From contig OZ024765.1 in the NCBI GenBank assembly GCA_964016885.1, forward strand, positions 8,432,001-8,496,000: a DNA stretch of 64,000 bases. Direction: 5' to 3'. A program made the translations under genes and the position numbers. Within the stretch, counting starts at the first letter, position 1. Every line of letters starts with the position of its first letter. The DNA is from Eledone cirrhosa (Eukaryota). A model generated the notes under the pieces. It was not told where the DNA came from. It did not search any database and saw nothing but the letters and a program-made list of their open reading frames with translations. Below are positions 17,573-60,834 of this stretch, one piece after another.

Positions 17573-17573
17573 T

Positions 17574-33088: not shown

Positions 33089-33551
33089 TTTATGTCCAAA
33101 AGAAAGGGTGAAAGTTACTTCTACAGAAAAATTGACTTTGAAAGTCTACTGTCTGTTTATGAATATTGTTATTGCTGTTGTGATACAAATGTTAGTAAGT
33201 AAATGGGTATCGAAAAATAAAGGGTGAAAGTTACTTCAACATAAAAATTGACTTTGAAAGTATAAGGCTGATAATTGAATGTAAAAAGATTGATAAGAAA
33301 GGCCCCCCAAAAAAATTTACAGGTATTTGTATGTATGTGTGTATTTTTATGTCGAAAAGAAAGGGTTAAAGTTACTTCTACAGAAAAATTTAGTTTGAAA
33401 GTGTAAGACCGATGTATGTGTAAATTATGTGACAGGTATTTGTATGTATGTGTGTATATGTATGTATGTGTGTATATGTATGTATGTGTGTATGAAAGTG
33501 TAAGGCCAATGTGTGTGTAAATTAAGTGACAAGTATTTGTATGTATGTGTG

Positions 33552-34439: not shown

Positions 34440-34630
34440 ACCCAACCCAATTCTGAGGGAGATTTAGCATGGCACAATGTGATAAAGCTGTACATTTGAT
34501 TTACAAGTGAAGTGTATTTTTCATTGTATTGTAAGTAGCTGAGTATTCCAGACGAATGTAACCTTTTATGGAGTTCTCAGGGAGATTCAGCATAACACAC
34601 TATATGACAAAGTTGCTGTTTTGAATTACA
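34440..34630. mobile_element. Degenerate SINE-like interspersed repeat (copy at ~61110-61295)
   Basis: Two diverged copies of TTCTCAGGGAGATTCAGCATAACAC...GACAAAG...TTTGAATTACA; resembles, from memory, a common octopus SINE body. Confidence 0.4.
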
Positions 34631-35705
34631 GAGAGAACATAATCCAAAATAAGGCAATAAAGCCACTAATATATGAGGGGTTACTGAGAAGGGAGAAGGA
34701 CAAGACAGAGAGAACATAATCCCTAGTAAGGCAATAAAGCCCTAATATATAAGGGGTTACTGAGAAGGGAGAAAGTCAAGACAGAGAGAAGATAATCCCT
34801 AGTAAGGCAATAAAGCCACTAACATATAAGGGGTTACTAAGAAGGGAGAACATAATCCCAAGTAAGGCAATAAAGCCACTAACATATAAGGGGTTACTAA
34901 GAAGGGAGAACATAATCCCAAGTAAGGCAATAAAGCCACTAACATATAAGGGGTTACTAAGAAGGGAGAACATAATCCCAAGTAAGGCAATAAAGCCACT
35001 AATATATAAGGGGTTACTAAGAAGGGAGAACATAATCCCAAGTAAGGCAATAAAGCCACTAACATATAAGGGGTTACTAAGAAGGGAGAACATAATCCCA
35101 AGTAAGGCAATAAAGCCACTAACATATAAGGGGTTACTAAGAAGGGAGAACATAATCCCTAGTAAGGCAATAAAGCCACTAACATATAAGGGGTTACTAA
35201 GAAGGGAGAACATAATCCCAAGTAAGGCAATAAAGCCACTAACATATAAGGGGTTACTAAGAAGGGAGAACATAATCCCAAGTAAGGCAATAAAGCCACT
35301 AACATATAAGGGGTTACTAAGAAGGGAGAACATAATCCCAAGTAAGGCAATAAAGCCACTAATATATAAGGGGTTACTAAGAAGGGAGAACATAATCCCA
35401 AGTAAGGCAATAAAGCCACTAACATATAAGGGGTTACTAAGAAGGGAGAACATAATCCCAAGTAAGGCAATAAAGCCACTAACATATAAGGGGTTACTAA
35501 GAAGGGAGAACATAATCCCAAGTAAGGCAATAAAGCCACTAACATATAAGGGGTTACTAAGAAGGGAGAACATAATCCCTAGTAAGGCAATAAAGCCACT
35601 AACATATAAGGGGTTACTAAGAAGGGAGAACATAATCCCAAGTAAGGCAATAAAGCCACTAATATATAAGGGGTTACTGAGAAGGGAGAAAGTCAAGACA
35701 GAGAA
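34630..35705. repeat. 60-bp minisatellite (~17 units; ~4 units in paralog 61300-61600)
   Basis: Unit AGTAAGGCAATAAAGCCACTAACATATAAGGGGTTACTAAGAAGGGAGAACATAATCCCA; open on the minus strand as (MFSLLSNPLYVSGFIALLGI)n. Confidence 0.95.
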
Positions 35706-35786
35706 AACCTTTGCGAGGCTCAGAATTTTAAGATGTCTTAAACACCTCTGCTCAGATATTCCTTGGTCTTCCTCAATGTTCATTCA

Positions 35787-38215
35787 ATTGGCATCACATG
35801 ACACTTCTTCACCTAACAATCACCATCCATACACATCACACGACACTTCTTCACCTCACAATCACCATCCATACACATCACATGACACTTCTTCACCTAA
35901 CAATCACCATCCATACACATCACATGACACTTCTTCACCTTACAATCACCATCCATACACATCACATGACACTTCTTCACCTAACATTCATCTAACAATC
36001 ACCATCCATATACATCACATGACACTTCTTCACCTAACAATCACTTTCCATTGGCATCGCATGGCACTTCTTCACCTAACAATCACCATCCATACACATC
36101 ACACGACACTTCTTCACCTAACAATCACCATCCATACACATCACATGACACTTATACACCTAACAATCACTTTCCATTGGCATCGCATGGCACTTCTTCA
36201 CCTAACAATCACCATCCATACACATCACACGACACTTCTTCACCTAACAATCACCATCCATACACATCACATGACACTTCTACACCTAACAATCACTTTC
36301 CATTGGCATCGCATGGCACTTGTTCACCTAACAATCACCATCCATACACATCACATGACACTTCTTCACCTAACAATCACTTTCCATTGGCATCGCATGG
36401 CACTTGTTCACCTAACAATCACCATCCATACACATCACATGACACTTCTACACCTAACAATCACCATCCATACACATCACACGACACTTCTTCACCTAAC
36501 AATCACCATCCATACACATCACATGACACTTCTACACCTAACAATCACTTTCCATTGGCATCGCATGGCACTTCTTCCCCTTACAATCAACATCCATACA
36601 CATCACACGACACTTCTTCACCTAACAATCAACATCCATACACATCACATGACACTTCTACACCTAACAATCACTTTCCATTGGCATCGCATGGCACTTC
36701 TTCAACTAACAATCACCATCCATACACATCACACGACACTTCTTCACCTAACAATCACTTTCCATTGGCATCGCATGGCACTTCTTCACCTAACAATCAC
36801 CATCTATACACATCACATGACACTTCTACACCTAACAATCACTTTCCATTGGCATCGCATGGCACTTGTTCACCTAACAATCACCATCCATACACATCAC
36901 ATGACACTTCTTCACCTAACAATCACTTTCCATTGGCATCGCATGGCACTTGTTCACCTAACAATCACCATCCATACACATCACATGACACTTCTACACC
37001 TAACAATCACCATCCATACACATCACACGACACTTCTTCACCTAACAATCACCATCCATACACATCACATGACACTTCTACACCTAACAATCACTTTCCA
37101 TTGGCATCGCATGGCACTTCTTCCCCTAACAATCACCATCCATACACATCACACGACACTTCTTCACCTAACAATCACCATCCATACACATCACATGACA
37201 CTTCTACACCTAACAATCACTTTCCATTGGCATCGCATGGCACTTCTTCAACTAACAATCACCATCCATACACATCACACGACACTTCTTCACCTAACAA
37301 TCACTTTCCATTGGCATCGCATGGCACTTCTTCATCTAACAATCACCATCTATACACATCACATGACACTTCTACACCTAACAATCACTTTCCATTGGCA
37401 TCGCATGGCACTTCTTCACCTAAAAATCACCATCCATAAACATCACATGACACTTCTACACCTAACAATCACCATCCATACACATCACATGACACTTCTA
37501 CACCTAACAATCACTTTCCATTGGCATCGCATGGCACTTCTTCACCTAACAATCACCATCCATACACATCACATGACACTTCTACACCTAACAATCACTT
37601 TCCATTGGCATCGCATGGCACTTCTTCACCTAACAATCACCATCCATACACATCACATGACACTTCCACACCTAACAATCACTTTCCATTGGCATCGCAT
37701 GGCACTTCTTCACCTAACAATCACCATCCATACACATCACACGACACTTCTTCACCTAACAATCACTTTCCATTGGCATCGCATGGCACTTGTTCACCTA
37801 ACAATCACCATCCATACACATCACATGACACTTCTACACCTAACAATCACCATCCATACACATCACATGACACTTCTACACCTAACAATCACTTTCCATT
37901 GGCATCGCATGGCACTTCTTCACCTAACAATCACCATCCATACACATCACATGACACTTCTTCACCTAACAATCACTTTCCATTGGCATCACATGACACT
38001 TCTACACCTAACAATCACCATCCATACACATCACACAACACTTCTACACCTAACAATCACTTTCCATTGGCATCGCATGGCACTTCTTCACCTAACAATC
38101 ACCATCCATACACATCACACGACACTTCTTCACCTAACAATCACCATCCATACACATCACATGACACTTCTTCACCTAACAATCACCATCCATACACATC
38201 ACACGACACTTCTAC
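35787..38215. repeat. 42-bp two-variant minisatellite
   Basis: Units CACCTAACAATCACCATCCATACACATCACATGACACTTCTT and CACCTAACAATCACTTTCCATTGGCATCGCATGGCACTTCTT interleaved. Confidence 0.95.
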
Positions 38216-41200
38216 TTGAGGCAAGAGTGGTTGTCTTGCTCGCATAGGACTGTCTGGCGGGTTTTCTACAGCTGGATGCCCTTCCTAACACCAACCACAT
38301 TTACAGTGTGGGACTGGGAGGTTTTTACCGTGTTGCCTACACGGCCACATTACAGCGTGGACTGTGTGTTTTTTTGTCGTGACACCTACACGATCTCATT
38401 TGTTTCGGCCTGGATGTCATGGCACCAACGTGACTTTACATTGAAAGGGGCGGTGTGGAAGGGGGCGTATTTTGTTAGAGATGTCTACTGACTGTAGTAG
38501 GTCTACTTTGTATTTAGGCAAAGCAGGTCTTCTCTATTACTGAGTACCGCCAAAGATCTCGGTCCAGTGACATTGTCTTGGAGAGGTGTGTGTAAGGTCG
38601 GAATTTATCAGGTCGTTCCAGGTTTCTCTGGGTCTGCCTACTCCGTGGCTACCGTCTATCTTTATTGCCCTGCACTTTTTTATAAAGCTGTCGTCTTTCA
38701 TGCGCATCACGTGACCATACCAACGTAGCCTTCTCTTGAGTAAACAACATCTGATCCCTCTTATTTCTAATTTTTCCCTTAGTTCGTTTATGCTTTGCCG
38801 TTCACGTATATTACTATTACACATCCAGCAGAGCATGCAAGCTTCGTTCCTCTCTAGTCTGCGTATATCCTCTGCACACAATGCCCAGGTCTCACTGCCA
38901 TGCAACATTGCTGTTCGTATGCAGGCATCATACAACCTGCCTTTCATTTTTAGGGAGAACCCTTTAGCGGCTAATAGTGGTATAAGCTCTCTGAACTTTT
39001 TCCATCCAGTTCTGACTCTAGCTACTGTACTTTCAGAGCACCCTCCCCCACTGCTGATTTTGTCACCCAGGTAACGGAAGCTGTCCACTATTTCTATAGA
39101 ACCCTCTGCGCAATTGAAAGAGCTAGTATTATGTGGGCACTTGCTGCTACTTATTGCACCAGAGCACCGGCCACATGTAAAATCTATGTTCTTAGTTAGC
39201 TTACCTGTGATCCCACTACATCTTTTATGCACCCATACTTTGCATTTGGGACATAAAATGGAGTTTCTACCTATGCCTTTCCTACACACTGAGCATAGCC
39301 ATTTCCCAGAAGGGACCGGCGCCTTATTTTCTTTCCTTCAAACTAGAACTTTAGTCTTAGCCAGGTTAATTTTAAGGCCTTTTGATTCTAGGCCGTGCTT
39401 CCATGTTTGGAATTTCTTCTCTAGCTCGGCCATTGATTCAGCTATGAGCGTTAGATCATCTGCGTATAGGAGTTCCCATGGGCAGCCGGTCTTGAACTCC
39501 ACTGTTATAGCCTGAAGGGCAATAATAAATAGTAGGGGGCTAAGAACAGAGCCCTGATGAACACCAACTTTTACACTAAACTCTTCACTATATTCGTTGT
39601 TAATTCTAACCTTGCTGACTGTTTCTTTATACATGGCTTGTATAGCTCTCACAAGCCATTCGTCAACACCTAGTTTTCTAAGAGCCCACCAAATAATGGA
39701 ACGAGGGACTCTGTCGAAGGCTTTCTCCAAGTCAACAAAATCTAAGTATAGGGGTTTACTTTTAGCTAGGTACTTCTCCTGTAGTTGTCGTACAATGAAA
39801 AGAGCGTCTGTGGTACTTTTGCCTGACACAAACCCGAACTGCATTTCATCTAGATCAATTCTCTCTCTGATTAGTTGCGCTATTACTTTTTCCGTGACCT
39901 TCATGACCTGGTCGATTAATTTAATGCCTCTATAGTTACTCCTATCTAGGGCATCTCCTTTACCCTTGTAACAGTTAATGATGATGCTGCTATGCCAGTC
40001 CTTCGGAACAACCCCATTCTGTATAACTTGGTTTACTATCCGGGTGACCATGGTGTGTCCCACCGTTCCAGAGGCTTTCAGCATCTCAGCAACTATTTTC
40101 GAAGGCCCAGCCGCCTTACCCGTTTTCATATCTTTGATTGCCTTACTTATTATACTACCATCGACTAACACTGCTGGTCCCTCTATTGGGTCGTTGTGGG
40201 GGAGACTGTCTTTCTCCCATTTATTCTCCTCATTTAGAAGCCTTTCGTAGTGACACTTCCAAGCTACCTTCTTATCAGCGTCAGTGATGGCAAGTACGCC
40301 ATCATCATTTAGTACACACTTCTCCCCAACAATATCACGGTTTTCCTTTACACATTGCCTAGCAATCCTGAACACCTCACGTTTTTGGTCCTCACGTTGT
40401 AGAACATGCTTGAACTAGCAATTCTGAACACCTCACGTTTTTGGTCCTCACGTTATATGTATATATGTATATGTTTATATACATAGTTAACAAGGATGTG
40501 AAGTTCTTTACAAAACAGGTTTTAGTTAAAAGATGAAGACTATTGAAAATTCAGATTAGATTTTTTCTAATCATCATCATCATCATCATCATCATCATTT
40601 AACGTCCATGTTCCACGCTTGCATGGGTTTGGACAGGAGTTTTCCCACTTGAGGCAAGAGTGGTTGTCTTGCTCCCATAGGACTGTCTGGCAGGTTTTCT
40701 ACAGTTGGATGCCCTTCTTAACACCAACCACATTTACAGTGTGGGACAGGGAGGTTTTTACCGTGTTGCCTACACGGCCACATTACAGCGTGGACTGTGT
40801 GTTTTTTTGTCGTGACACCTACACGATCTCATTTGTTTCGGCCTGGATGTCGTGGCACCAACGTGACTTTATATTGAAAGGGGCGGTGTGGATGGGGTGG
40901 GGGTGGTGTGACGGGGACGTATTTTGTTAGAGATGCCTACTGACTGTAGTAGGTTTACTTTGTATTTAGGCAAAGCGGGTCTTCTCTATTACTGAGTACC
41001 GCCAAAGATCTCGGTCCAGTGACATTGTCTTGGAGAGGTGTAAGTGTGTGAGGTCGGAATTTATCAGGTCGTCCCAGGTTTTTCTGGGTCTGCCTACTTC
41101 GTGGCTACCGTCTATCTTTATTGCCCTGCACTTTTTTATACAGCTGTCGTCTTTCATGCGCATCACGTGACCATACCAACGTAGCCTTCTCTCGAGTAAA

Positions 41201-44200
41201 CAACATCTGATCCCTCTTATTTCTAATTTTTCCCTTAGTTTGTTTATGCTTTGCCGTTCACGTATATTACTATTACACATCCAGCAGAGCATACAAGCTT
41301 CGTTCCTCTCTAGTCTGCGTATATCCTCTGCACACAATGCCCAGGTCTCACTGCCATGCAACATTGCTGTTCGTATGCAGGCATCATACAACCTGCCTTT
41401 CATTTTTAGGGAGAACCCTTTAGCGGCTAATAGTGGTATAAGCTCTCTGAACTTTTTCCATCCAGTTCTGACTCTAGCTACTGTACTTTCAGAGCACCCT
41501 CCCCCACTGCTGATTTTGTCACCCAGGTAACGGAAGCTGTCCACTATTTCTATAGAACCCTCTGCGCAATTGAAAGAGCTAGTATTATGTGGGCACTTGC
41601 TGCTACTTATTGCACCAGAGCACCGGCCACATGTAAAATCTATGTTCTTAGTTAGCTTACCTGTGATCCCACTACATCTTTTATGCACCCATACTTTGCA
41701 TTTGGGACATAAAATGGAGTTTCTACCTATGCCTTTCCTACACACTGAGCATAGCCATTTCCCAGAAGGGACCGGCGCCTTATTTTCTTTCCTTCAAACT
41801 AGAACTTTAGTCTTAGCCAGGTTAATTTTAAGGCCTTTTGATTCTAGGCCGTGCTTCCATGTTTGGAATTTCTTCTCTAGCTCGGCCATTGATTCAGCTA
41901 TGAGCGTTAGATCATCTGCGTATAGGAGTTCCCATGGGCAGCCGGTCTTGAACTCCACTGTTATAGCCTGAAGGGCAATAATAAATAGTAGGGGGCTAAG
42001 AACAGAGCCCTGATGAACACCAACTTTTACACTAAACTCTTCACTATATTCGTTGTTAATTCTAACCTTGCTGACTGTTTCTTTATACATGGCTTGTATA
42101 GCTCTCACAAGCCATTCGTCAACACCTAGTTTTCTAAGAGCCCACCAAATAATGGAACGAGGGACTCTGTCGAAGGCTTTCTCCAAGTCAACAAAATCTA
42201 AGTATAGGGGTTTACTTTTAGCTAGGTACTTCTCCTGTAGTTGTCGTACAATGAAAAGAGCGTCTGTGGTACTTTTGCCTGACACAAACCCGAACTGCAT
42301 TTCATCTAGATCAATTCTCTCTCTGATTAGTTGCGCTATTACTTTTTCCGTGACCTTCATGACCTGGTCGATTAATTTAATGCCTCTATAGTTACTCCTA
42401 TCTAGGGCATCTCCTTTACCCTTGTAACAGTTAATGATGATGCTGCTATGCCAGTCCTTCGGAACAACCCCATTCTGTATAACTTGGTTTACTATCCGGG
42501 TGACCATGGTGTGTCCCACCGTTCCAGAGGCTTTCAGCATCTCAGCAACTATTTTCGAAGGCCCAGCCGCCTTACCCGTTTTCATATCTTTGATTGCCTT
42601 ACTTATTATACTACCATCGACTAACACTGCTGGTCCCTCTATTGGGTCGTTGTGGGGGAGACTGTCTTTCTCCCATTTATTCTCCTCATTTAGAAGCCTT
42701 TCGTAGTGACACTTCCAAGCTACCTTCTTATCAGCGTCAGTGATGGCAAGTACGCCATCATCATTTAGTACACACTTCTCCCCAACAATATCACGGTTTT
42801 CCTTTACACATTGCCTAGCAATCCTGAACACCTCACGTTTTTGGTCCTCACGTTGTAGAACATGCTTGAACTAGCAATTCTGAACACCTCACGTTTTTGG
42901 TCCTCACGTTATATGTATATATGTATATGTTTATATACATAGTTAACAAGGATGTGAAGTTCTTTACAAAACAGGTTTTAGTTAAAAGATGAAGACTATT
43001 GAAAATTCAGATTAGATTTTTTCTAATCATCATCATCATCATCATCATCATCATTTAACGTCCATGTTCCACGCTTGCATGGGTTTGGACAGGAGTTTTC
43101 CCACTTGAGGCAAGAGTGGTTGTCTTGCTCCCATAGGACTGTCTGGCAGGTTTTCTACAGCTGGATGCCCTTCTTAACACCAACCACATTTACAGTGTGG
43201 GACAGGGAGGTTTTTACCGTGTTGCCTACACGGCCACATTACAGCGTGGACTGTGTGTTTTTTTGTCGTGACACCTACACGATCTCATTTGTTTCGGCCT
43301 GGATGTCGTGGCACCAACGTGACTTTATATTGAAAGGGGCGGTGTGGATGGGGTGGGGGTGGTGTGACGGGGACGTATTTTGTTAGAGATGCCTACTGAC
43401 TGTAGTAGGTTTACTTTGTATTTAGGCAAAGCGGGTCTTCTCTATTACTGAGTACCGCCAAAGATCTCGGTCCAGTGACATTGTCTTGGAGAGGTGTAAG
43501 TGTGTGAGGTCGGAATTTATCAGGTCGTCCCAGGTTTTTCTGGGTCTGCCTACTTCGTGGCTACCGTCTATCTTTATTGCCCTGCACTTTTTTATACAGC
43601 TGTCGTCTTTCATGCGCATCACGTGACCATACCAACGTAGCCTTCTCTCGAGTAAACAACATCTGATCCCTCTTATTTCTAATTTTTCCCTTAGTTTGTT
43701 TATGCTTTGCCGTTCACGTATATTACTATTACACATCCAGCAGAGCATACAAGCTTCGTTCCTCTCTAGTCTGCGTATATCCTCTGCACACAATGCCCAG
43801 GTCTCACTGCCATGCAACATTGCTGTTCGTATGCAGGCATCATACAACCTGCCTTTCATTTTTAGGGAGAACCCTTTAGCGGCTAATAGTGGTATAAGCT
43901 CTCTGAACTTTTTCCATCCAGTTCTGACTCTAGCTACTGTACTTTCAGAGCACCCTCCCCCACTGCTGATTTTGTCACCCAGGTAACGGAAGCTGTCCAC
44001 TATTTCTATAGAACCCTCTGCGCAATTGAAAGAGCTAGTATTATGTGGGCACTTGCTGCTACTTATTGCACCAGAGCACCGGCCACATGTAAAATCTATG
44101 TTCTTAGTTAGCTTACCTGTGATCCCACTACATCTTTTATGCACCCATACTTTGCATTTGGGACATAAAATGGAGTTTCTACCTATGCCTTTCCTACACA

Positions 44201-47200
44201 CTGAGCATAGCCATTTCCCAGAAGGGACCGGCGCCTTATTTTCTTTCCTTCAAACTAGAACTTTAGTCTTAGCCAGGTTAATTTTAAGGCCTTTTGATTC
44301 TAGGCCGTGCTTCCATGTTTGGAATTTCTTCTCTAGCTCGGCCATTGATTCAGCTATGAGCGTTAGATCATCTGCGTATAGGAGTTCCCATGGGCAGCCG
44401 GTCTTGAACTCCACTGTTATAGCCTGAAGGGCAATAATAAATAGTAGGGGGCTAAGAACAGAGCCCTGATGAACACCAACTTTTACACTAAACTCTTCAC
44501 TATATTCGTTGTTAATTCTAACCTTGCTGACTGTTTCTTTATACATGGCTTGTATAGCTCTCACAAGCCATTCGTCAACACCTAGTTTTCTAAGAGCCCA
44601 CCAAATAATGGAACGAGGGACTCTGTCGAAGGCTTTCTCCAAGTCAACAAAATCTAAGTATAGGGGTTTACTTTTAGCTAGGTACTTCTCCTGTAGTTGT
44701 CGTACAATGAAAAGAGCGTCTGTGGTACTTTTGCCTGACACAAACCCGAACTGCATTTCATCTAGATCAATTCTCTCTCTGATTAGTTGCGCTATTACTT
44801 TTTCCGTGACCTTCATGACCTGGTCGATTAATTTAATGCCTCTATAGTTACTCCTATCTAGGGCATCTCCTTTACCCTTGTAACAGTTAATGATGATGCT
44901 GCTATGCCAGTCCTTCGGAACAACCCCATTCTGTATAACTTGGTTTACTATCCGGGTGACCATGGTGTGTCCCACCGTTCCAGAGGCTTTCAGCATCTCA
45001 GCAACTATTTTCGAAGGCCCAGCCGCCTTACCCGTTTTCATATCTTTGATTGCCTTACTTATTATACTACCATCGACTAACACTGCTGGTCCCTCTATTG
45101 GGTCGTTGTGGGGGAGACTGTCTTTCTCCCATTTATTCTCCTCATTTAGAAGCCTTTCGTAGTGACACTTCCAAGCTACCTTCTTATCAGCGTCAGTGAT
45201 GGCAAGTACGCCATCATCATTTAGTACACACTTCTCCCCAACAATATCACGGTTTTCCTTTACACATTGCCTAGCAATCCTGAACACCTCACGTTTTTGG
45301 TCCTCACGTTGTAGAACATGCTTGAACTAGCAATTCTGAACACCTCACGTTTTTGGTCCTCACGTTATATGTATATATGTATATGTTTATATACATAGTT
45401 AACAAGGATGTGAAGTTCTTTACAAAACAGGTTTTAGTTAAAAGATGAAGACTATTGAAAATTCAGATTAGATTTTTTCTAATCATCATCATCATCATCA
45501 TCATCATCATTTAACGTCCATGTTCCACGCTTGCATGGGTTTGGACAGGAGTTTTCCCACTTGAGGCAAGAGTGGTTGTCTTGCTCCCATAGGACTGTCT
45601 GGCAGGTTTTCTACAGCTGGATGCCCTTCTTAACACCAACCACATTTACAGTGTGGGACAGGGAGGTTTTTACCGTGTTGCCTACACGGCCACATTACAG
45701 CGTGGACTGTGTGTTTTTTTGTCGTGACACCTACACGATCTCATTTGTTTCGGCCTGGATGTCGTGGCACCAACGTGACTTTATATTGAAAGGGGCGGTG
45801 TGGATGGGGTGGGGGTGGTGTGACGGGGACGTATTTTGTTAGAGATGCCTACTGACTGTAGTAGGTTTACTTTGTATTTAGGCAAAGCGGGTCTTCTCTA
45901 TTACTGAGTACCGCCAAAGATCTCGGTCCAGTGACATTGTCTTGGAGAGGTGTAAGTGTGTGAGGTCGGAATTTATCAGGTCGTCCCAGGTTTTTCTGGG
46001 TCTGCCTACTTCGTGGCTACCGTCTATCTTTATTGCCCTGCACTTTTTTATACAGCTGTCGTCTTTCATGCGCATCACGTGACCATACCAACGTAGCCTT
46101 CTCTCGAGTAAACAACATCTGATCCCTCTTATTTCTAATTTTTCCCTTAGTTTGTTTATGCTTTGCCGTTCACGTATATTACTATTACACATCCAGCAGA
46201 GCATACAAGCTTCGTTCCTCTCTAGTCTGCGTATATCCTCTGCACACAATGCCCAGGTCTCACTGCCATGCAACATTGCTGTTCGTATGCAGGCATCATA
46301 CAACCTGCCTTTCATTTTTAGGGAGAACCCTTTAGCGGCTAATAGTGGTATAAGCTCTCTGAACTTTTTCCATCCAGTTCTGACTCTAGCTACTGTACTT
46401 TCAGAGCACCCTCCCCCACTGCTGATTTTGTCACCCAGGTAACGGAAGCTGTCCACTATTTCTATAGAACCCTCTGCGCAATTGAAAGAGCTAGTATTAT
46501 GTGGGCACTTGCTGCTACTTATTGCACCAGAGCACCGGCCACATGTAAAATCTATGTTCTTAGTTAGCTTACCTGTGATCCCACTACATCTTTTATGCAC
46601 CCATACTTTGCATTTGGGACATAAAATGGAGTTTCTACCTATGCCTTTCCTACACACTGAGCATAGCCATTTCCCAGAAGGGACCGGCGCCTTATTTTCT
46701 TTCCTTCAAACTAGAACTTTAGTCTTAGCCAGGTTAATTTTAAGGCCTTTTGATTCTAGGCCGTGCTTCCATGTTTGGAATTTCTTCTCTAGCTCGGCCA
46801 TTGATTCAGCTATGAGCGTTAGATCATCTGCGTATAGGAGTTCCCATGGGCAGCCGGTCTTGAACTCCACTGTTATAGCCTGAAGGGCAATAATAAATAG
46901 TAGGGGGCTAAGAACAGAGCCCTGATGAACACCAACTTTTACACTAAACTCTTCACTATATTCGTTGTTAATTCTAACCTTGCTGACTGTTTCTTTATAC
47001 ATGGCTTGTATAGCTCTCACAAGCCATTCGTCAACACCTAGTTTTCTAAGAGCCCACCAAATAATGGAACGAGGGACTCTGTCGAAGGCTTTCTCCAAGT
47101 CAACAAAATCTAAGTATAGGGGTTTACTTTTAGCTAGGTACTTCTCCTGTAGTTGTCGTACAATGAAAAGAGCGTCTGTGGTACTTTTGCCTGACACAAA

Positions 47201-50200
47201 CCCGAACTGCATTTCATCTAGATCAATTCTCTCTCTGATTAGTTGCGCTATTACTTTTTCCGTGACCTTCATGACCTGGTCGATTAATTTAATGCCTCTA
47301 TAGTTACTCCTATCTAGGGCATCTCCTTTACCCTTGTAACAGTTAATGATGATGCTGCTATGCCAGTCCTTCGGAACAACCCCATTCTGTATAACTTGGT
47401 TTACTATCCGGGTGACCATGGTGTGTCCCACCGTTCCAGAGGCTTTCAGCATCTCAGCAACTATTTTCGAAGGCCCAGCCGCCTTACCCGTTTTCATATC
47501 TTTGATTGCCTTACTTATTATACTACCATCGACTAACACTGCTGGTCCCTCTATTGGGTCGTTGTGGGGGAGACTGTCTTTCTCCCATTTATTCTCCTCA
47601 TTTAGAAGCCTTTCGTAGTGACACTTCCAAGCTACCTTCTTATCAGCGTCAGTGATGGCAAGTACGCCATCATCATTTAGTACACACTTCTCCCCAACAA
47701 TATCACGGTTTTCCTTTACACATTGCCTAGCAATCCTGAACACCTCACGTTTTTGGTCCTCACGTTGTAGAACATGCTTGAACTAGCAATTCTGAACACC
47801 TCACGTTTTTGGTCCTCACGTTATATGTATATATGTATATGTTTATATACATAGTTAACAAGGATGTGAAGTTCTTTACAAAACAGGTTTTAGTTAAAAG
47901 ATGAAGACTATTGAAAATTCAGATTAGATTTTTTCTAATCATCATCATCATCATCATCATCATCATTTAACGTCCATGTTCCACGCTTGCATGGGTTTGG
48001 ACAGGAGTTTTCCCACTTGAGGCAAGAGTGGTTGTCTTGCTCCCATAGGACTGTCTGGCAGGTTTTCTACAGCTGGATGCCCTTCTTAACACCAACCACA
48101 TTTACAGTGTGGGACAGGGAGGTTTTTACCGTGTTGCCTACACGGCCACATTACAGCGTGGACTGTGTGTTTTTTTGTCGTGACACCTACACGATCTCAT
48201 TTGTTTCGGCCTGGATGTCGTGGCACCAACGTGACTTTATATTGAAAGGGGCGGTGTGGATGGGGTGGGGGTGGTGTGACGGGGACGTATTTTGTTAGAG
48301 ATGCCTACTGACTGTAGTAGGTTTACTTTGTATTTAGGCAAAGCGGGTCTTCTCTATTACTGAGTACCGCCAAAGATCTCGGTCCAGTGACATTGTCTTG
48401 GAGAGGTGTAAGTGTGTGAGGTCGGAATTTATCAGGTCGTCCCAGGTTTTTCTGGGTCTGCCTACTTCGTGGCTACCGTCTATCTTTATTGCCCTGCACT
48501 TTTTTATACAGCTGTCGTCTTTCATGCGCATCACGTGACCATACCAACGTAGCCTTCTCTCGAGTAAACAACATCTGATCCCTCTTATTTCTAATTTTTC
48601 CCTTAGTTTGTTTATGCTTTGCCGTTCACGTATATTACTATTACACATCCAGCAGAGCATACAAGCTTCGTTCCTCTCTAGTCTGCGTATATCCTCTGCA
48701 CACAATGCCCAGGTCTCACTGCCATGCAACATTGCTGTTCGTATGCAGGCATCATACAACCTGCCTTTCATTTTTAGGGAGAACCCTTTAGCGGCTAATA
48801 GTGGTATAAGCTCTCTGAACTTTTTCCATCCAGTTCTGACTCTAGCTACTGTACTTTCAGAGCACCCTCCCCCACTGCTGATTTTGTCACCCAGGTAACG
48901 GAAGCTGTCCACTATTTCTATAGAACCCTCTGCGCAATTGAAAGAGCTAGTATTATGTGGGCACTTGCTGCTACTTATTGCACCAGAGCACCGGCCACAT
49001 GTAAAATCTATGTTCTTAGTTAGCTTACCTGTGATCCCACTACATCTTTTATGCACCCATACTTTGCATTTGGGACATAAAATGGAGTTTCTACCTATGC
49101 CTTTCCTACACACTGAGCATAGCCATTTCCCAGAAGGGACCGGCGCCTTATTTTCTTTCCTTCAAACTAGAACTTTAGTCTTAGCCAGGTTAATTTTAAG
49201 GCCTTTTGATTCTAGGCCGTGCTTCCATGTTTGGAATTTCTTCTCTAGCTCGGCCATTGATTCAGCTATGAGCGTTAGATCATCTGCGTATAGGAGTTCC
49301 CATGGGCAGCCGGTCTTGAACTCCACTGTTATAGCCTGAAGGGCAATAATAAATAGTAGGGGGCTAAGAACAGAGCCCTGATGAACACCAACTTTTACAC
49401 TAAACTCTTCACTATATTCGTTGTTAATTCTAACCTTGCTGACTGTTTCTTTATACATGGCTTGTATAGCTCTCACAAGCCATTCGTCAACACCTAGTTT
49501 TCTAAGAGCCCACCAAATAATGGAACGAGGGACTCTGTCGAAGGCTTTCTCCAAGTCAACAAAATCTAAGTATAGGGGTTTACTTTTAGCTAGGTACTTC
49601 TCCTGTAGTTGTCGTACAATGAAAAGAGCGTCTGTGGTACTTTTGCCTGACACAAACCCGAACTGCATTTCATCTAGATCAATTCTCTCTCTGATTAGTT
49701 GCGCTATTACTTTTTCCGTGACCTTCATGACCTGGTCGATTAATTTAATGCCTCTATAGTTACTCCTATCTAGGGCATCTCCTTTACCCTTGTAACAGTT
49801 AATGATGATGCTGCTATGCCAGTCCTTCGGAACAACCCCATTCTGTATAACTTGGTTTACTATCCGGGTGACCATGGTGTGTCCCACCGTTCCAGAGGCT
49901 TTCAGCATCTCAGCAACTATTTTCGAAGGCCCAGCCGCCTTACCCGTTTTCATATCTTTGATTGCCTTACTTATTATACTACCATCGACTAACACTGCTG
50001 GTCCCTCTATTGGGTCGTTGTGGGGGAGACTGTCTTTCTCCCATTTATTCTCCTCATTTAGAAGCCTTTCGTAGTGACACTTCCAAGCTACCTTCTTATC
50101 AGCGTCAGTGATGGCAAGTACGCCATCATCATTTAGTACACACTTCTCCCCAACAATATCACGGTTTTCCTTTACACATTGCCTAGCAATCCTGAACACC

Positions 50201-53200
50201 TCACGTTTTTGGTCCTCACGTTGTAGAACATGCTTGAACTAGCAATTCTGAACACCTCACGTTTTTGGTCCTCACGTTATATGTATATATGTATATGTTT
50301 ATATACATAGTTAACAAGGATGTGAAGTTCTTTACAAAACAGGTTTTAGTTAAAAGATGAAGACTATTGAAAATTCAGATTAGATTTTTTCTAATCATCA
50401 TCATCATCATCATCATCATCATTTAACGTCCATGTTCCACGCTTGCATGGGTTTGGACAGGAGTTTTCCCACTTGAGGCAAGAGTGGTTGTCTTGCTCCC
50501 ATAGGACTGTCTGGCAGGTTTTCTACAGCTGGATGCCCTTCTTAACACCAACCACATTTACAGTGTGGGACAGGGAGGTTTTTACCGTGTTGCCTACACG
50601 GCCACATTACAGCGTGGACTGTGTGTTTTTTTGTCGTGACACCTACACGATCTCATTTGTTTCGGCCTGGATGTCGTGGCACCAACGTGACTTTATATTG
50701 AAAGGGGCGGTGTGGATGGGGTGGGGGTGGTGTGACGGGGACGTATTTTGTTAGAGATGCCTACTGACTGTAGTAGGTTTACTTTGTATTTAGGCAAAGC
50801 GGGTCTTCTCTATTACTGAGTACCGCCAAAGATCTCGGTCCAGTGACATTGTCTTGGAGAGGTGTAAGTGTGTGAGGTCGGAATTTATCAGGTCGTCCCA
50901 GGTTTTTCTGGGTCTGCCTACTTCGTGGCTACCGTCTATCTTTATTGCCCTGCACTTTTTTATACAGCTGTCGTCTTTCATGCGCATCACGTGACCATAC
51001 CAACGTAGCCTTCTCTCGAGTAAACAACATCTGATCCCTCTTATTTCTAATTTTTCCCTTAGTTTGTTTATGCTTTGCCGTTCACGTATATTACTATTAC
51101 ACATCCAGCAGAGCATACAAGCTTCGTTCCTCTCTAGTCTGCGTATATCCTCTGCACACAATGCCCAGGTCTCACTGCCATGCAACATTGCTGTTCGTAT
51201 GCAGGCATCATACAACCTGCCTTTCATTTTTAGGGAGAACCCTTTAGCGGCTAATAGTGGTATAAGCTCTCTGAACTTTTTCCATCCAGTTCTGACTCTA
51301 GCTACTGTACTTTCAGAGCACCCTCCCCCACTGCTGATTTTGTCACCCAGGTAACGGAAGCTGTCCACTATTTCTATAGAACCCTCTGCGCAATTGAAAG
51401 AGCTAGTATTATGTGGGCACTTGCTGCTACTTATTGCACCAGAGCACCGGCCACATGTAAAATCTATGTTCTTAGTTAGCTTACCTGTGATCCCACTACA
51501 TCTTTTATGCACCCATACTTTGCATTTGGGACATAAAATGGAGTTTCTACCTATGCCTTTCCTACACACTGAGCATAGCCATTTCCCAGAAGGGACCGGC
51601 GCCTTATTTTCTTTCCTTCAAACTAGAACTTTAGTCTTAGCCAGGTTAATTTTAAGGCCTTTTGATTCTAGGCCGTGCTTCCATGTTTGGAATTTCTTCT
51701 CTAGCTCGGCCATTGATTCAGCTATGAGCGTTAGATCATCTGCGTATAGGAGTTCCCATGGGCAGCCGGTCTTGAACTCCACTGTTATAGCCTGAAGGGC
51801 AATAATAAATAGTAGGGGGCTAAGAACAGAGCCCTGATGAACACCAACTTTTACACTAAACTCTTCACTATATTCGTTGTTAATTCTAACCTTGCTGACT
51901 GTTTCTTTATACATGGCTTGTATAGCTCTCACAAGCCATTCGTCAACACCTAGTTTTCTAAGAGCCCACCAAATAATGGAACGAGGGACTCTGTCGAAGG
52001 CTTTCTCCAAGTCAACAAAATCTAAGTATAGGGGTTTACTTTTAGCTAGGTACTTCTCCTGTAGTTGTCGTACAATGAAAAGAGCGTCTGTGGTACTTTT
52101 GCCTGACACAAACCCGAACTGCATTTCATCTAGATCAATTCTCTCTCTGATTAGTTGCGCTATTACTTTTTCCGTGACCTTCATGACCTGGTCGATTAAT
52201 TTAATGCCTCTATAGTTACTCCTATCTAGGGCATCTCCTTTACCCTTGTAACAGTTAATGATGATGCTGCTATGCCAGTCCTTCGGAACAACCCCATTCT
52301 GTATAACTTGGTTTACTATCCGGGTGACCATGGTGTGTCCCACCGTTCCAGAGGCTTTCAGCATCTCAGCAACTATTTTCGAAGGCCCAGCCGCCTTACC
52401 CGTTTTCATATCTTTGATTGCCTTACTTATTATACTACCATCGACTAACACTGCTGGTCCCTCTATTGGGTCGTTGTGGGGGAGACTGTCTTTCTCCCAT
52501 TTATTCTCCTCATTTAGAAGCCTTTCGTAGTGACACTTCCAAGCTACCTTCTTATCAGCGCCAGTGATGGCAAGTACGCCATCATCATTTAGTACACACT
52601 TCTCCCCAACAATATCACGGTTTTCCTTTACACATTGCCTAGCAATCCTGAACACCTCACGTTTTTGGTCCTCACGTTGTAGAACATGCTTGAACTAGCA
52701 ATTCTGAACACCTCACGTTTTTGGTCCTCACGTTATATGTATATATGTATATGTTTATATACATAGTTAACAAGGATGTGAAGTTCTTTACAAAACAGGT
52801 TTTAGTTAAAAGATGAAGACTATTGAAAATTCAGATTAGATTTTTTCTAATCATCATCATCATCATCATCATCATCATTTAACGTCCATGTTCCACGCTT
52901 GCATGGGTTTGGACAGGAGTTTTCCCACTTGAGGCAAGAGTGGTTGTCTTGCTCCCATAGGACTGTCTGGCAGGTTTTCTACAGCTGGATGCCCTTCTTA
53001 ACACCAACCACATTTACAGTGTGGGACAGGGAGGTTTTTACCGTGTTGCCTACACGGCCACATTACAGCGTGGACTGTGTGTTTTTTTGTCGTGACACCT
53101 ACACGATCTCATTTGTTTCGGCCTGGATGTCGTGGCACCAACGTGACTTTATATTGAAAGGGGCGGTGTGGATGGGGTGGGGGTGGTGTGACGGGGACGT

Positions 53201-56018
53201 ATTTTGTTAGAGATGCCTACTGACTGTAGTAGGTTTACTTTGTATTTAGGCAAAGCGGGTCTTCTCTATTACTGAGTACCGCCAAAGATCTCGGTCCAGT
53301 GACATTGTCTTGGAGAGGTGTAAGTGTGTGAGGTCGGAATTTATCAGGTCGTCCCAGGTTTTTCTGGGTCTGCCTACTTCGTGGCTACCGTCTATCTTTA
53401 TTGCCCTGCACTTTTTTATACAGCTGTCGTCTTTCATGCGCATCACGTGACCATACCAACGTAGCCTTCTCTCGAGTAAACAACATCTGATCCCTCTTAT
53501 TTCTAATTTTTCCCTTAGTTTGTTTATGCTTTGCCGTTCACGTATATTACTATTACACATCCAGCAGAGCATACAAGCTTCGTTCCTCTCTAGTCTGCGT
53601 ATATCCTCTGCACACAATGCCCAGGTCTCACTGCCATGCAACATTGCTGTTCGTATGCAGGCATCATACAACCTGCCTTTCATTTTTAGGGAGAACCCTT
53701 TAGCGGCTAATAGTGGTATAAGCTCTCTGAACTTTTTCCATCCAGTTCTGACTCTAGCTACTGTACTTTCAGAGCACCCTCCCCCACTGCTGATTTTGTC
53801 ACCCAGGTAACGGAAGCTGTCCACTATTTCTATAGAACCCTCTGCGCAATTGAAAGAGCTAGTATTATGTGGGCACTTGCTGCTACTTATTGCACCAGAG
53901 CACCGGCCACATGTAAAATCTATGTTCTTAGTTAGCTTACCTGTGATCCCACTACATCTTTTATGCACCCATACTTTGCATTTGGGACATAAAATGGAGT
54001 TTCTACCTATGCCTTTCCTACACACTGAGCATAGCCATTTCCCAGAAGGGACCGGCGCCTTATTTTCTTTCCTTCAAACTAGAACTTTAGTCTTAGCCAG
54101 GTTAATTTTAAGGCCTTTTGATTCTAGGCCGTGCTTCCATGTTTGGAATTTCTTCTCTAGCTCGGCCATTGATTCAGCTATGAGCGTTAGATCATCTGCG
54201 TATAGGAGTTCCCATGGGCAGCCGGTCTTGAACTCCACTGTTATAGCCTGAAGGGCAATAATAAATAGTAGGGGGCTAAGAACAGAGCCCTGATGAACAC
54301 CAACTTTTACACTAAACTCTTCACTATATTCGTTGTTAATTCTAACCTTGCTGACTGTTTCTTTATACATGGCTTGTATAGCTCTCACAAGCCATTCGTC
54401 AACACCTAGTTTTCTAAGAGCCCACCAAATAATGGAACGAGGGACTCTGTCGAAGGCTTTCTCCAAGTCAACAAAATCTAAGTATAGGGGTTTACTTTTA
54501 GCTAGGTACTTCTCCTGTAGTTGTCGTACAATGAAAAGAGCGTCTGTGGTACTTTTGCCTGACACAAACCCGAACTGCATTTCATCTAGATCAATTCTCT
54601 CTCTGATTAGTTGCGCTATTACTTTTTCCGTGACCTTCATGACCTGGTCGATTAATTTAATGCCTCTATAGTTACTCCTATCTAGGGCATCTCCTTTACC
54701 CTTGTAACAGTTAATGATGATGCTGCTATGCCAGTCCTTCGGAACAACCCCATTCTGTATAACTTGGTTTACTATCCGGGTGACCATGGTGTGTCCCACC
54801 GTTCCAGAGGCTTTCAGCATCTCAGCAACTATTTTCGAAGGCCCAGCCGCCTTACCCGTTTTCATATCTTTGATTGCCTTACTTATTATACTACCATCGA
54901 CTAACACTGCTGGTCCCTCTATTGGGTCGTTGTGGGGGAGACTGTCTTTCTCCCATTTATTCTCCTCATTTAGAAGCCTTTCGTAGTGACACTTCCAAGC
55001 TACCTTCTTATCAGCGTCAGTGATGGCAAGTTCGCCATCATCATTTAGTACACACTTCTCCCCAACAATATCACGGTTTTCCTTTACACATTGCCTAGCA
55101 ATCCTGAACACCTCACGTTTTTGGTCCTCACGTTGTAGAACATGCTTGAACTAGCAATTCTGAACACCTCACGTTTTTGGTCCTCACGTTATATGTATAT
55201 ATGTATATGTTTATATACATAGTTAACAAGGATGTGAAGTTCTTTACAAAACAGGTTTTAGTTAAAAGATGAAGACTATTGAAAATTCAGATTAGATTTT
55301 TTCTAATCATCATCATCATCATCATCATCATCATTTAACGTCCATGTTCCACGCTTGCATGGGTTTGGACAGGAGTTTTCCCACTTGAGGCAAGAGTGGT
55401 TGTCTTGCTCCCATAGGACTGTCTGGCAGGTTTTCTACAGCTGGATGCCCTTCTTAACACCAACCACATTTACAGTGTGGGACAGGGAGGTTTTTACCGT
55501 GTTGCCTACACGGCCACATTACAGCGTGGACTGTGTGTTTTTTTGTCGTGACACCTACACGATCTCATTTGTTTCGGCCTGGATGTCGTGGCACCAACGT
55601 GACTTTATATTGAAAGGGGCGGTGTGGATGGGGTGGGGGTGGTGTGACGGGGACGTATTTTGTTAGAGATGCCTACTGACTGTAGTAGGTTTACTTTGTA
55701 TTTAGGCAAAGCGGGTCTTCTCTATTACTGAGTACCGCCAAAGATCTCGGTCCAGTGACATTGTCTTGGAGAGGTGTAAGTGTGTGAGGTCGGAATTTAT
55801 CAGGTCGTCCCAGGTTTTTCTGGGTCTGCCTACTTCGTGGCTACCGTCTATCTTTATTGCCCTGCACTTTTTTATACAGCTGTCGTCTTTCATGCGCATC
55901 ACATGACCATACCAACGTAGCCTTCTCAGTGTCAGTGATGGCAAGTACGCCATCATCATTAAGTACACACTTCTCCCCGACAATATCACGGTTTTCCTTG
56001 ACACATTGCCTAGCAATC
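38216..56018 (-). repeat. Megasatellite of 5'-truncated RTE-A: 2456-bp period, 7 long copies plus a terminal internally deleted copy
   Basis: ORF pairs repeat at exact 2456 offsets (39338, 41794 ... 54074). (ATC)n tails at 40570, 43026, 45482, 47938, 50394, 52850, 55306. All long copies share a TGA stop in KTKVLV* and the LDFVD change. Confidence 0.97.
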
Positions 56019-56151
56019 ATATAGTATAAATAATTTTAGAATTGATATATTAAAATAACTGGTATTAATTGGTATAACTTATCAAATATTGTATATTACT
56101 TATTAAATATTCTAAACGTTTTTCATGTAATCTGTGAGCAGTTTGGATATA

Positions 56152-57148
56152 CAAAGACAGGAAGAATACCTAGCTAAAAGTAAGCATCTCTACCTAACAT
56201 TTGTTGATCGGGAGAAAGCTTTTGACAGAGTGCCCCATGACATAATTTGGTGGGCTCTTAGAAAACTAGGAGTAGGTGAGTGGCTTGTGAAGGCTGTACA
56301 AGCCATGTATAGAGGAGCAGTCAGAAAAATCAGGATTAACAATGACTATAGCGAGGAATTTAGCGTACAAGTTGGCGTCTACCAGGGCTCTCTCCTGTTT
56401 ATTATCGTTCTGGAGGCTATAACAGAGGAGTTTAAGACCTGCTGCCCATGGGAACTTCTGTACATGAATGATCTTACACTGAATCCATGGCGGAACTAGA
56501 GAAGAAATTTCAAACATGGAAGCAGCGCCTAAAAAGAAGGGGTCTTAAAGTCAACCTGACAAAGACTAAGGTTCTAGTAAGTAGAAGAAAAAACAAAACC
56601 CAGATCCCCTCAGGGAAATGGCCTTGTCCAGTATGTAGGAAAGGCGTTGGTAGAAATTTCATCCTCTGCCCCATATGCAAACTGTGGGTACACAAGAGAT
56701 GTAGTGGAATCTCAGGAAGTTTAGCTAAAAATGTAGGCTTTATGTGTAGCAGTTAGACTGGAACAGTAAGCAGCAAATGACCGCAAGAAACAAGCGCTAC
56801 CAAATTCTCGGAGGGCTCTGTAGAAACAGTAGATAGCTTCTGCTACTTAGGGGACTGAATTAGCAACGGTGGTGGGTGTTCTGAAAGTACAGTAACCAGA
56901 GTAAGAATGGTATGGAGGAAGTTCTGGGGAGCTACTACCACTGCTGGCTACAAAAGGCTTCTCCCTCAGAATGAAAGGCAGACTGTATGATGCATGCATA
57001 CATACAGCTATGTTACATGGTAGTGAGACTTGGATGTTGTGTGCAGAAGACTTGCGGAGATTGGAAAGAAATGAAGCCTGCATGCTCCAATGGATGTGTA
57101 ATAGTAATATGCAAGAAGGGTGAAGCATAAACGAACTGAGAGAGAAAC
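56152..57148 (+). pseudogene. Older, decayed RTE fragment (related to family A)
   Basis: EYLAKSKHLYLTFVDREKAFDRV...KWPCPVCRKGVGRNFILCPICKLWVHKRC with frameshifts and stops. Confidence 0.88.
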
Positions 57149-57259
57149 ATACAGTAGTAGTATCTCCCCCTCTCACAGAAACGTCTTCTCTTTCTTTCCT
57201 CCATTGTAAAGGTGTCCCCAGGGGTTCCGTTATTGAAATCCAATTACCCAGTCCTGTTT

Positions 57260-57435
57260 TTCGAAATATCCACAAAATAAACTCTACTCCCAAAGACGCC
57301 ATGTTACAATTAACATGCCGGGAGTATGAATATTCGTCAACATACGATTTGGGTTTTATTCTTCAGACTAATCTCATGGAAAGCCAACTTCCAAGTTATT
57401 GATCATCACACTTTTTTGTAATGAATTATATATAT

Positions 57436-58215: not shown

Positions 58216-59560
58216 TATAAATTTATGTTATGTATTTCTGTAGAAAAGTGAAGTTAAAGAAGAGTGTTATATGTATAATAAAGAGCTATTATACAATAAA
58301 CAATATAATATAATATAATATATATATATATGTGTGTGTGGGTGTGTATATATATATATATATATACTAGCCGAATTACCCGTGCCCTGCTGTGTTTCAC
58401 ACATTTTTTTTGTAAGAAAATGATGATTGATTTTAAATCAGTGATATAATTTATGGAGAAAAACTCTACATTTCAATATTACTCAATGTAAAATGTAATG
58501 CATGAAAAATTGGAAAACGTTATTTTTTGTAATATATCAAATCAAAATGTCATTATTAAATCTTATTCATATTTTGTCTCTTGTAAATAATTTTTTTTCA
58601 AAATATCAATTCAAAACTTGATCATTTCATTTTTGTGTAAAGCATTATTTTCAAATTAGAAATTCAAGGTTTAATCATTTATTTTTTAACATAATAAATA
58701 CATGAAAATATATTTCATACTTTGTCCTAATGAAGAACTTCAGGGTAAACAACATTTCTTGTCTTTGTTTGATTGGCTAAAATGTAAAGATATTTTGAAG
58801 TTCCAGTCCTTGAAACAGCCACATAAAACATGCCATGATTGAAACATGAGTTTGTCAGATCTATACCAATAGTTTTGAAAGTTTGACCTTGACTCTTATT
58901 GATGCTCATGGCAAAGCATGGCCTCATTGGCAACTGCAGCCTCTTAAATGTAAAAGGTAACTCGCTATCACTTGGTATATGTGGAATCCTCGGGATGAGA
59001 AGAGCTTGATCTTTGTAAGCCCTGAATATAATGGTTGCTTCAATCAAATTCTCATGCAATCTTGTTACAACACATCTTGTTCCATTTATTGGCCAACATT
59101 TTCACTATAGGGGGTTTAACCCCCATTAATGTGTCTTAATATTATTGAAATATGCTGAAAGTTTGTGAATAGGCATCGTATATCTTGTCATTTACCTATG
59201 GTTTAAATTTCATATAAATCGAAGGGAAAACATTTCAGTGTGGGTTTGTACCTCAGGGGAACCCTTTGATTAAAATGATATATACTTATCCAAGTACCCT
59301 GGGCAATGTAGTTTCAGAATATATATGGTTATGAGGGTCCATCTCCAAAACCATAGGAGGAGTTTGTGAACAAACAAACAAACAAACGGACAGGAACTAC
59401 AACTTTATATATATATAGATATACAAATATATACACACACATGCATATATATTATATATATATATATGTGTGTGTGTGTGCGTGTGTGTGTGTGTGTGTA
59501 TGTGTATGTATGTGTGTATATATATATATAGATAGATATATGTATATATATATATACATA
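57260..59560 (+). repeat. Paralogous compact copy of ~5480-6290 + 16515-16720 + 20640-22090
   Basis: Collinear near-identical blocks joined through TA tracts where the first copy has insertions. Confidence 0.9.
58367..59419 (-). mobile_element. Duplicate of the 1053-bp Helitron (helicase fragment 58727-59059)
   Basis: Same termini and the same flanks as 20915-21967, so duplicated with its flanks rather than transposed. Confidence 0.88.
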
Positions 59561-60815: not shown

Positions 60816-60834
60816 CATACAGGTACACATATAT

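What the first reader, a model, noticed from the sequence alone, without database searches (positions are those of the whole stretch)
38216..56018. 17.8-kb LINE megasatellite whose birth by unequal crossover between two neighbouring RTE copies is readable in the SNPs
Seen: in the UTR-side ~470 bp, the first copy (P, 38216-40453) differs from all later units by many substitutions and two small deletions (CTCGCATAGG vs CTCCCATAGG, TATAAAGCTG vs TATACAGCTG). The last copy (Q, 55306-56018) carries the later-unit alleles there, but has ACATGACC instead of ACGTGACC, a large internal deletion and its own 5' alleles. The six middle units are Q-type on the UTR side and P-type in the body. Inference: the ancestor was P-spacer-Q, a crossover in a ~25-bp window (~38685-38712 in P) made a chimeric 2456-bp unit, and that unit then expanded very recently. 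I spotted only a few private SNPs among units (~40704, 52561, 55031). This would be satellite DNA caught forming from a dead LINE.
Basis: partly seen in the sequence, partly recalled or inferred. Interest (0 to 1): 0.72.

Follow-up and report, generated by a model that had tools for sequence, protein, structure and literature searches.

The report
Young tandem array of LINE fragments

Summary
The array is in the assembly as described: edge copy P, six 2456-bp units differing by three private SNPs, and an internally deleted copy Q. The spacer and Q's right flank are contiguous in an older repeat, so P and Q are two insertions. The unit joins Q's tail junction to P's 5' junction through a seamless body, which fits homologous exchange. 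The proposed crossover window (38685-38712) fails: P still differs from the units at 38737, 38785 and 38837. Q's ACATGACC allele is private to Q, so it is uninformative. P and the units also share a UTR haplotype found in 8 of 4935 family motif matches, all 8 in this array. So at least two exchanges are layered: likely an old one that made the unit and a recent one that set the visible boundary (38838 to about 39050). Public reads could not test copy number. A real but ordinary example.

The parts
38214..40454 (-). Copy P: 5'-truncated RTE-like LINE that lost its last 77 bp and tail at the 42-bp satellite; old, diverged left part 38214-38837; identical to the units from 38838
38838..39050 (.). 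Interval holding the most recent P/unit exchange boundary (lower bound = last difference at 38837; upper bound is a 95% estimate, Upos 747-847 for 3-1.5% divergence; first shared rare allele at 39131)
   Evidence: upper bound inferred
38418..38432 (.). Locus-private haplotype (Upos 205C, 219G) shared by P, all six units and Q; further shared rare alleles at 38522 (328A) and 38830 (640A)
40359..40454 (-). P-type 5' junction: a 40-bp segment repeated after 16 bp with one mismatch, then joined to a TA run; carried by P and all six units
   Evidence: sequence
40455..40569 (.). Spacer: first part of an older AT-rich dispersed repeat; seven identical copies, all in this array
40570..43025 (-). Unit 1 ((ATC)n tail, 3' UTR, truncated ORF, 5' junction, spacer); private SNP 40705
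43026..45481 (-). Unit 2, identical to units 3 and 4
45482..47937 (-). Unit 3; ORF fragment 45878-47782 with RT and PHD-like finger, one in-frame stop (codon 359 of 635), no endonuclease domain
47938..50393 (-). Unit 4
50394..52849 (-). Unit 5; private SNP 52561
52850..55305 (-). Unit 6; private SNP 55032
55306..55927 (-). Copy Q, left part: tail plus Upos 1-545, unit-type except private 55903
55928..56018 (-). Copy Q, 5' piece (Upos 2087-2177), joined by 2-bp microhomology; lacks 3 derived P/unit alleles and has 1 of its own
56015..56151 (.). Right flank of Q: continuation of the older repeat, contiguous with the spacer in uninterrupted copies, AATC shared at both ends of Q
35792..38213 (.). 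42-bp-family satellite that abuts and truncates P

Best explanation
Eight same-strand fragments of one young LINE family with seven identical spacers form a 2456-bp tandem array whose unit likely arose by an old homologous exchange between two insertions 115 bp apart, and likely expanded and was homogenised recently by further unequal exchange. Shown: the structure, Q's empty site, P and the units sharing locus-private alleles from Upos 205 to 640, the last P/unit difference at 38837, and near-zero divergence among units. Inferred: the founding exchange lay nearer the 3' end (likely Upos 103-204, where the units carry four derived alleles that P lacks and shared alleles have not yet begun). 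P and the first unit then diverged about 2-3%. A microhomology deletion trimmed the right end and left only the 5' tip of the original Q. Recent unequal exchanges multiplied the unit, and one P-by-unit exchange at 38838 to about 39050 overwrote P's body. On this reading both ends are relic edges and the visible switch marks the latest exchange, not the birth. The array is predicted to be non-functional, copy-number-variable DNA.
For: Two insertions: spacer and right flank align end to end, sharing AATC, in old-repeat copy L094, and in the same order with short unaligned gaps in L098 and L093 (3 of 3 aligned); P has its own 5' junction 49 bp further into the element. Seamless body, no junction scar: each unit aligns in one piece (2196 bp, 95.6%) to the ORF-intact copy at 9908-13754. 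Older shared history: 205C+219G in 8 of 4935 motif matches, exactly P, six units and Q. P and unit share 4 rare alleles; only 2 other of 1326 pairs share as many or more, and one of those is a local duplicate pair. P+unit clade 92.7/97 over Upos 205-647. No shared rare allele in Upos 1-204 or 2087-2177 (about 2.9 expected if P and Q shared a source throughout, p=0.054). The body's rare-allele rate (16/1579) fits the unit lineage (8/407, p=0.13) better than P's left part (13/403, p=0.004). All four private SNPs lie in edge copies; units 2-4 are identical. This model does not need Q's deletion to fall in the last ~2% of the locus's history.
Against: An old gene-conversion tract between P and Q, or a common source RNA, would give the same shared alleles, and one haplotype cannot separate these. 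The 5' ends of P and Q lie only 49 bp apart, whereas the uncensored 5' ends of other long copies spread from 2266 to 3741; this model treats that as chance. P has 0 rare alleles in Upos 1-204 but 13 in 205-647, which no model here explains. Site counts are small, the region boundaries were chosen after seeing the data, and the 85 outgroup copies were best hits to parts of the array, not a random sample. Copy number is unverified by reads.
Confidence: 0.55

Rival explanations
1. One recent unequal crossover at 38838 to about 39050 between P and a then-undeleted Q made the unit. P and Q already shared alleles through an old conversion tract or a common source element, and Q lost 1541 bp afterwards.
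For: Gives the same allele pattern with a similar number of events; a single clean switch after 38837; a common source would also explain 5' ends only 49 bp apart.
Against: Needs crossover, expansion and Q's deletion all within about 0.03% divergence. No dispersed copy carries the shared haplotype (the two outside 328A hits lack the other alleles). Under a common source, shared alleles are missing from Upos 1-204 and 2087-2177 (p=0.054).
Confidence: 0.25
2. The founding exchange was homologous, but the six units were made in one burst (rolling-circle or repeated template switching during break repair) rather than stepwise, possibly ending at the microhomology junction in Q.
For: All unit SNPs are singletons with none shared by a subset of units; 2-bp microhomology at the right end; rolling-circle origin is discussed for Bari1 in bioRxiv 10.1101/158386 (Discussion part 1 read).
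Against: Three or four SNPs have almost no power; their position in edge copies fits stepwise exchange equally well; this does not by itself explain the old shared alleles.
Confidence: 0.1
3. The six-fold copy number is an assembly artefact; the animal has one or a few units.
For: An 11,855-bp run has no variant between units; the spacer was not recovered from 4 of 4 contig sets laid (the tool warns this can be a filter effect).
Against: Private SNPs in three units; exact period with no indel even in microsatellites; other near-identical kb-scale arrays are resolved in the same assembly; assemblers usually collapse rather than inflate repeats (general knowledge). P, Q and at least one chimeric unit cannot be produced by simple read duplication.
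Confidence: 0.07
4. One reading: a single crossover at 38685-38712 between two unrelated copies.
For: Units are Q-like through Upos 495 and carry G at 521 as P does.
Against: 521G is the family allele (67 of 69). Three P/unit differences follow within 152 bp and none in the next 1809 bp (p about 5e-4); two of them are derived in all six units. The shared private UTR haplotype contradicts 'unrelated'.
Confidence: 0.03

Closest known systems
TE-mediated multi-copy CNVs (Balachandran et al. 2022, PMC9675761; passages read) and LINE-LINE NAHR duplications (Startek et al. 2015, PMC4344489; passages read)
   Same: Directly oriented homologous LINEs of about 96-97% identity flank a tandemly amplified segment, with the junction at homologous positions; higher-order amplification and an inner deletion are both reported in humans.
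   Different: Non-mammalian RTE-like family; the unit is about 95% LINE with a 115-bp spacer; seven spacers; layered exchanges instead of one mappable breakpoint; no population or read-depth data here.
TE tandem dimers that expand into satellites: Hobo (~16 copies) and R1 arrays in Drosophila (McGurk and Barbash, bioRxiv 10.1101/158386; abstract and Discussion part 1 of 2 read)
   Same: Two nearby insertions with distinct 5' truncations provide the substrate, followed by expansion presumed to be by unequal exchange.
   Different: There the second element inserts into the first one's target-site duplication; here the two insertions used separate sites 115 bp apart in an older repeat, and that spacer is amplified too.
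Human TE-containing megasatellites (Warburton et al. 2008, PMC2588610; passages read); the duplication-by-unequal-crossover model reviewed in PMC12628747 (passages read)
   Same: Unit above 2 kb made of TE fragments, tandem array above 10 kb, presumed unequal crossing over between homologous TEs.
   Different: Only seven periods at one locus, far younger, no higher-order structure or dispersal.
RTE-2_OV, octopus RTE LINE (Petrosino et al. 2022, PMC9115989; passages read and 4 of 8 supplement files searched)
   Same: Single ORF of about 1100 aa with endonuclease, RT and a downstream finger; microsatellite at the 3' end.
   Different: 4 of 4 published primers tested match the window's intact copy only with 5-8 mismatches of 20, so this is another family; the unsearched supplement files may hold the full sequence.

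Membership tests
LINE-LINE NAHR / TE-mediated multi-copy CNV | Two directly oriented homologous elements bound the amplified segment | tested here: met
   P and Q on the same strand; Q's outer ends form one insertion; separate 5' junctions
LINE-LINE NAHR / TE-mediated multi-copy CNV | Junction lies at homologous positions, giving a seamless chimeric element | tested here: met
   Each unit aligns in one piece over 2196 bp to the intact copy; no scar in the body
LINE-LINE NAHR / TE-mediated multi-copy CNV | Substrate identity of about 96% or more (threshold from PMC4344489) | tested here: met
   16 substitutions in Upos 1-495 plus two deletions (about 96.7% by substitutions), 4 in 91 at the 5' piece; borderline
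LINE-LINE NAHR / TE-mediated multi-copy CNV | One breakpoint mappable between informative SNPs of the two parents | tested here: inconclusive
   One visible switch after 38837, but it lies in Q's deleted part and the parents share private alleles upstream
LINE-LINE NAHR / TE-mediated multi-copy CNV | Copy number confirmed by reads and variable among individuals | tested here: inconclusive
   Spacer skipped; 0 contigs laid in 4 of 4 runs
Double-insertion TE dimer (McGurk and Barbash) | Second element inserted into the first one's target site, so the junction holds only the duplicated target | tested here: not met
   115 bp of an older repeat lie between P's 5' end and Q's tail
Double-insertion TE dimer (McGurk and Barbash) | Distinct 5' truncations of the two elements | tested here: met
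   About Upos 2226 plus a 40-bp duplication in P; 2177 in Q
Megasatellite (Warburton 2008 sense) | Tandem unit above 2 kb built of TE fragments, array above 10 kb | tested here: met
   2456-bp unit, 17.8 kb
Megasatellite (Warburton 2008 sense) | Polymorphic copy number or spread to further loci | tested here: inconclusive
   Single locus in this assembly (7 full hits among 21 matches); polymorphism not testable here
RTE-clade LINE | Single ORF with AP endonuclease and RT; short tandem repeat at the 3' end | tested here: met
   Intact copy 9908-13234: Exo_endo_phos, RVT_1, PHD-like; (ATC)n tails
RTE-clade LINE | RT groups with RTE references in a tree | not tested

The most novel reading that the evidence does not exclude
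Q is a local retro-copy of P, or both were written from one RNA at one locus. That would explain their locus-private alleles and their 5' ends only 49 bp apart, so a dying LINE would have seeded its own satellite by hopping 115 bp and then recombining with its daughter, with the array still changing copy number today.
Probability: 0.15. Interest if true: 0.5.

Novelty: new member of a known kind. Interest (0 to 1): 0.3.

Why it matters
It is a tidy, very young example of a known route from dispersed retrotransposons to tandem DNA, in a genome where kilobase-scale arrays are common (1 of 6 sampled 100-kb blocks holds a 4.5-kb array of about 10 copies). Its lesson is methodological: the visible SNP switch at an array edge likely dates the latest exchange, not the birth. 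With long reads from several animals the locus could time expansion steps directly. No gene or function is implicated: Pfam hits among the 15 ORFs scanned were all transposon-type or low-complexity.

Tried and rejected
Read support. The run search listed 13 runs. Laying 4 runs on 53472-57420 was swamped by thousands of family copies, and the tool skipped the spacer (55186-55341). One contig of X5 covers 55991-56232 with one difference at depth about 21, but holds only 28 bases of Q, below the 31 needed to count as bridging. Laying 4 runs on the spacer alone gave 0 contigs, which the tool says can be a filter effect. Neither result bears on copy number, and the RAD run had no depth on the unique flank. 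A paralogous P-spacer-Q allele: none in 224 kb around the window and no spacer copy elsewhere in the assembly; the second 42-bp satellite (61685 onward) is followed by a differently oriented LINE piece. A genome-wide subfamily as the source of the shared alleles: rejected for 205C+219G; the two outside 325C+328A hits are about 90% copies lacking the other alleles. A 5'-truncation hotspot near Upos 2200: not seen, but the sample was selected to cover that region. Identity with RTE-2_OV: the ORF length looked equal, but primers do not match and the ORF from the first ATG is 1074 aa. P as a plain duplicate of Q: rejected because P holds 49 more LINE bases. Four loci fetched twice (L064, L073, L106, L112) were dropped before allele counts, and the G-rich tract Upos 240-275 was left out of rates and the tree. 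Paper searches listed no paper on this locus; I make no claim that none exists.
Full report
Setting. The window is G000:C26:8432001-8496000 in a 3.0-Gb animal assembly. An earlier scan note calls the genome octopus (e1-8673048); I did not verify this. The window is dense in satellites, microsatellites and LINE pieces. 'Upos' below counts from the anchor at 40647+2456n, running from the LINE's 3' end towards its 5' end; the LINE lies on the minus strand.

The observation. Eight same-strand copies sit at the stated places. The six middle units are exactly 2456 bp and differ at 3 columns, each a singleton: 40705, 52561 and 55032; units 2-4 are identical. P differs from the units by 16 substitutions and two deletions (19 and 4 bp) in Upos 1-495. 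Q matches the units over Upos 1-545 except at 55903, then jumps to Upos 2087 across a 2-bp microhomology. Its 91-bp 5' piece differs from P and the units at 4 sites. The spacer occurs 7 times in the assembly, all here. The unit's ORF fragment keeps RT and a PHD-like finger, lacks the endonuclease and has one stop. An ORF-intact family member lies at 9908-13234.

The crossover window fails. P also differs from all six units at 38737, 38785 and 38837 (Upos 547, 595, 647) and is identical only from 38838 through the spacer: 3 of 152 against 0 of 1809 sites, p=4.6e-4 with a boundary chosen afterwards. I polarised sites against 85 other family copies (best hits plus window copies; four double-fetched loci dropped). 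At 547 P is derived (family C in 68 of 70). At 595 and 647 the units are derived (family alleles in 60 of 69 and 76 of 77). At 521 Q is derived (G in 67 of 69).

Two insertions are real. In copies of an older AT-rich dispersed repeat the spacer and Q's right flank follow one another: in L094 they align to positions 39-144 and 140-277, overlapping at AATC, and L098 and L093 show the same order with short unaligned gaps. Q's tail and Q's 5' tip therefore belong to one insertion. P has its own 5' junction, 49 bp further into the element, with a 40-bp duplicated segment. A unit that carries Q's tail junction, P's 5' junction and an unscarred body (one 2196-bp alignment to the intact copy) is most simply made by homologous exchange between the two. 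This is inference, but strong.

The parents are not unrelated on the UTR side. P, the units and Q share rare alleles at Upos 205, 219 and 328; P and the units also share 640. An exact scan found the 205C+219G combination 8 times, in P, six units and Q, among 4935 matches to the degenerate family motif. In Upos 205-647 P and the unit form a clade (92.7/97; 52 sequences), and only 2 other pairs of 1326 share four or more rare alleles. No rare allele is shared in Upos 1-204 (units 4, P 0) or in Q's 5' piece (P/units 3, Q 1). Outgroup rates are flat along the element (1.4-1.6%), and the body's rate (16/1579) fits the unit lineage (8/407, p=0.13) better than P's left part (13/403, p=0.004).

Most likely history (inferred, 0.55). 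An old exchange near the 3' end (Upos 103-204) made a first unit with Q's tail and P's remainder. P and that unit diverged. A microhomology deletion cut the right end down to Q's 5' tip. Recent unequal exchanges multiplied the unit, and one of them, at 38838 to about 39050, replaced P's body with the unit's. The main rival (0.25) keeps one recent crossover in the corrected window, with earlier conversion or a common source for P and Q and a still later deletion in Q. It fits the alleles too and explains the close 5' ends, but squeezes three events into about 0.03% divergence. Unexplained under every model: P's excess of changes in Upos 205-547 beside none in 1-204.

Reads. Neither laying could test copy number (see Tried and rejected). 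The array therefore rests on the assembly alone.

Context and precedent. The surrounding 224 kb holds 39 young hits of this family, the array's own included, against 5 in 600 kb sampled elsewhere, and several other kb-scale direct duplications. Of six 100-kb blocks that I picked, one holds a 4.5-kb array of about 10 copies and two hold 470-bp arrays. LINE-LINE recombination producing duplications (PMC4344489, passages), TE-flanked multi-copy amplifications with an inner deletion (PMC9675761, passages), TE dimers expanding into arrays (bioRxiv 10.1101/158386, abstract and Discussion part 1), TE-built megasatellites (PMC2588610, passages) and the unequal-crossover model of satellite birth (PMC12628747, passages) are all in print; PMC3648361 was seen as abstract only and PMC13282606 as passages. 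The family resembles RTE-2_OV in design but is not it.

Verdict. The structure is real in the assembly and well observed, the general mechanism is probably right, and the specific 'readable birth crossover' is wrong. New member of a known kind; interest 0.30.

Noticed in passing
window 9908-13754: ORF-intact member of the same LINE family (1108 aa stop to stop; endonuclease, RT, PHD-like finger), lying between two copies of a ~1-kb direct duplication (8305-9374 and 13792-14861, 97-99%); its 3' 1.25 kb is duplicated again at 15224-16474 (97%).
   Followed up: partly
window 17572-20607: A second LINE family (67% identical to the first) with an open 1011-aa frame; its last 790 bp recur inverted, 99% identical, about 46 kb upstream of the window start.
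   Followed up: partly
window 1191-5241: Another young tandem duplication, period about 1734 bp, 2.3 copies, 99% identical, not made of this LINE family.
   Followed up: partly
window 31379-33145 and 58730-59101: PIF1-type helicase frames, likely Helitron pieces; 20790-21953 and 58242-59405 are 99% identical copies of the terminal part.
   Followed up: no
window 13439-13670, 16159-16390; L011 (about window 67134-67812): A 112-bp segment of this LINE's 3' UTR is tandemly repeated in some copies (2 to 6 times), a second, smaller route from this family to tandem DNA.
   Followed up: no
window 34163-38213 and 60832-64000 onward: The same succession of 76/60-bp and 42-bp satellites occurs twice, about 26 kb apart, on either side of the array; the second 42-bp block runs to about 66764.
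   Followed up: partly
window 22994-23617 and 25460-26547: 48-bp satellite blocks on both sides of a LINE fragment (23635-24995), within a ~2.46-kb direct duplication.
   Followed up: no
L169-L174 (G000:C26 about 4.03-4.08 Mb): Array of about 10 units of ~4.5 kb, unrelated to this LINE family; not identified.
   Followed up: no
L198-L204 (G000:C3 about 200.03-200.08 Mb): 468-bp repeat spanning about 58 kb.
   Followed up: no
window 56151-57147: An older, 75%-identical LINE fragment on the + strand begins 132 bp after Q.
   Followed up: no
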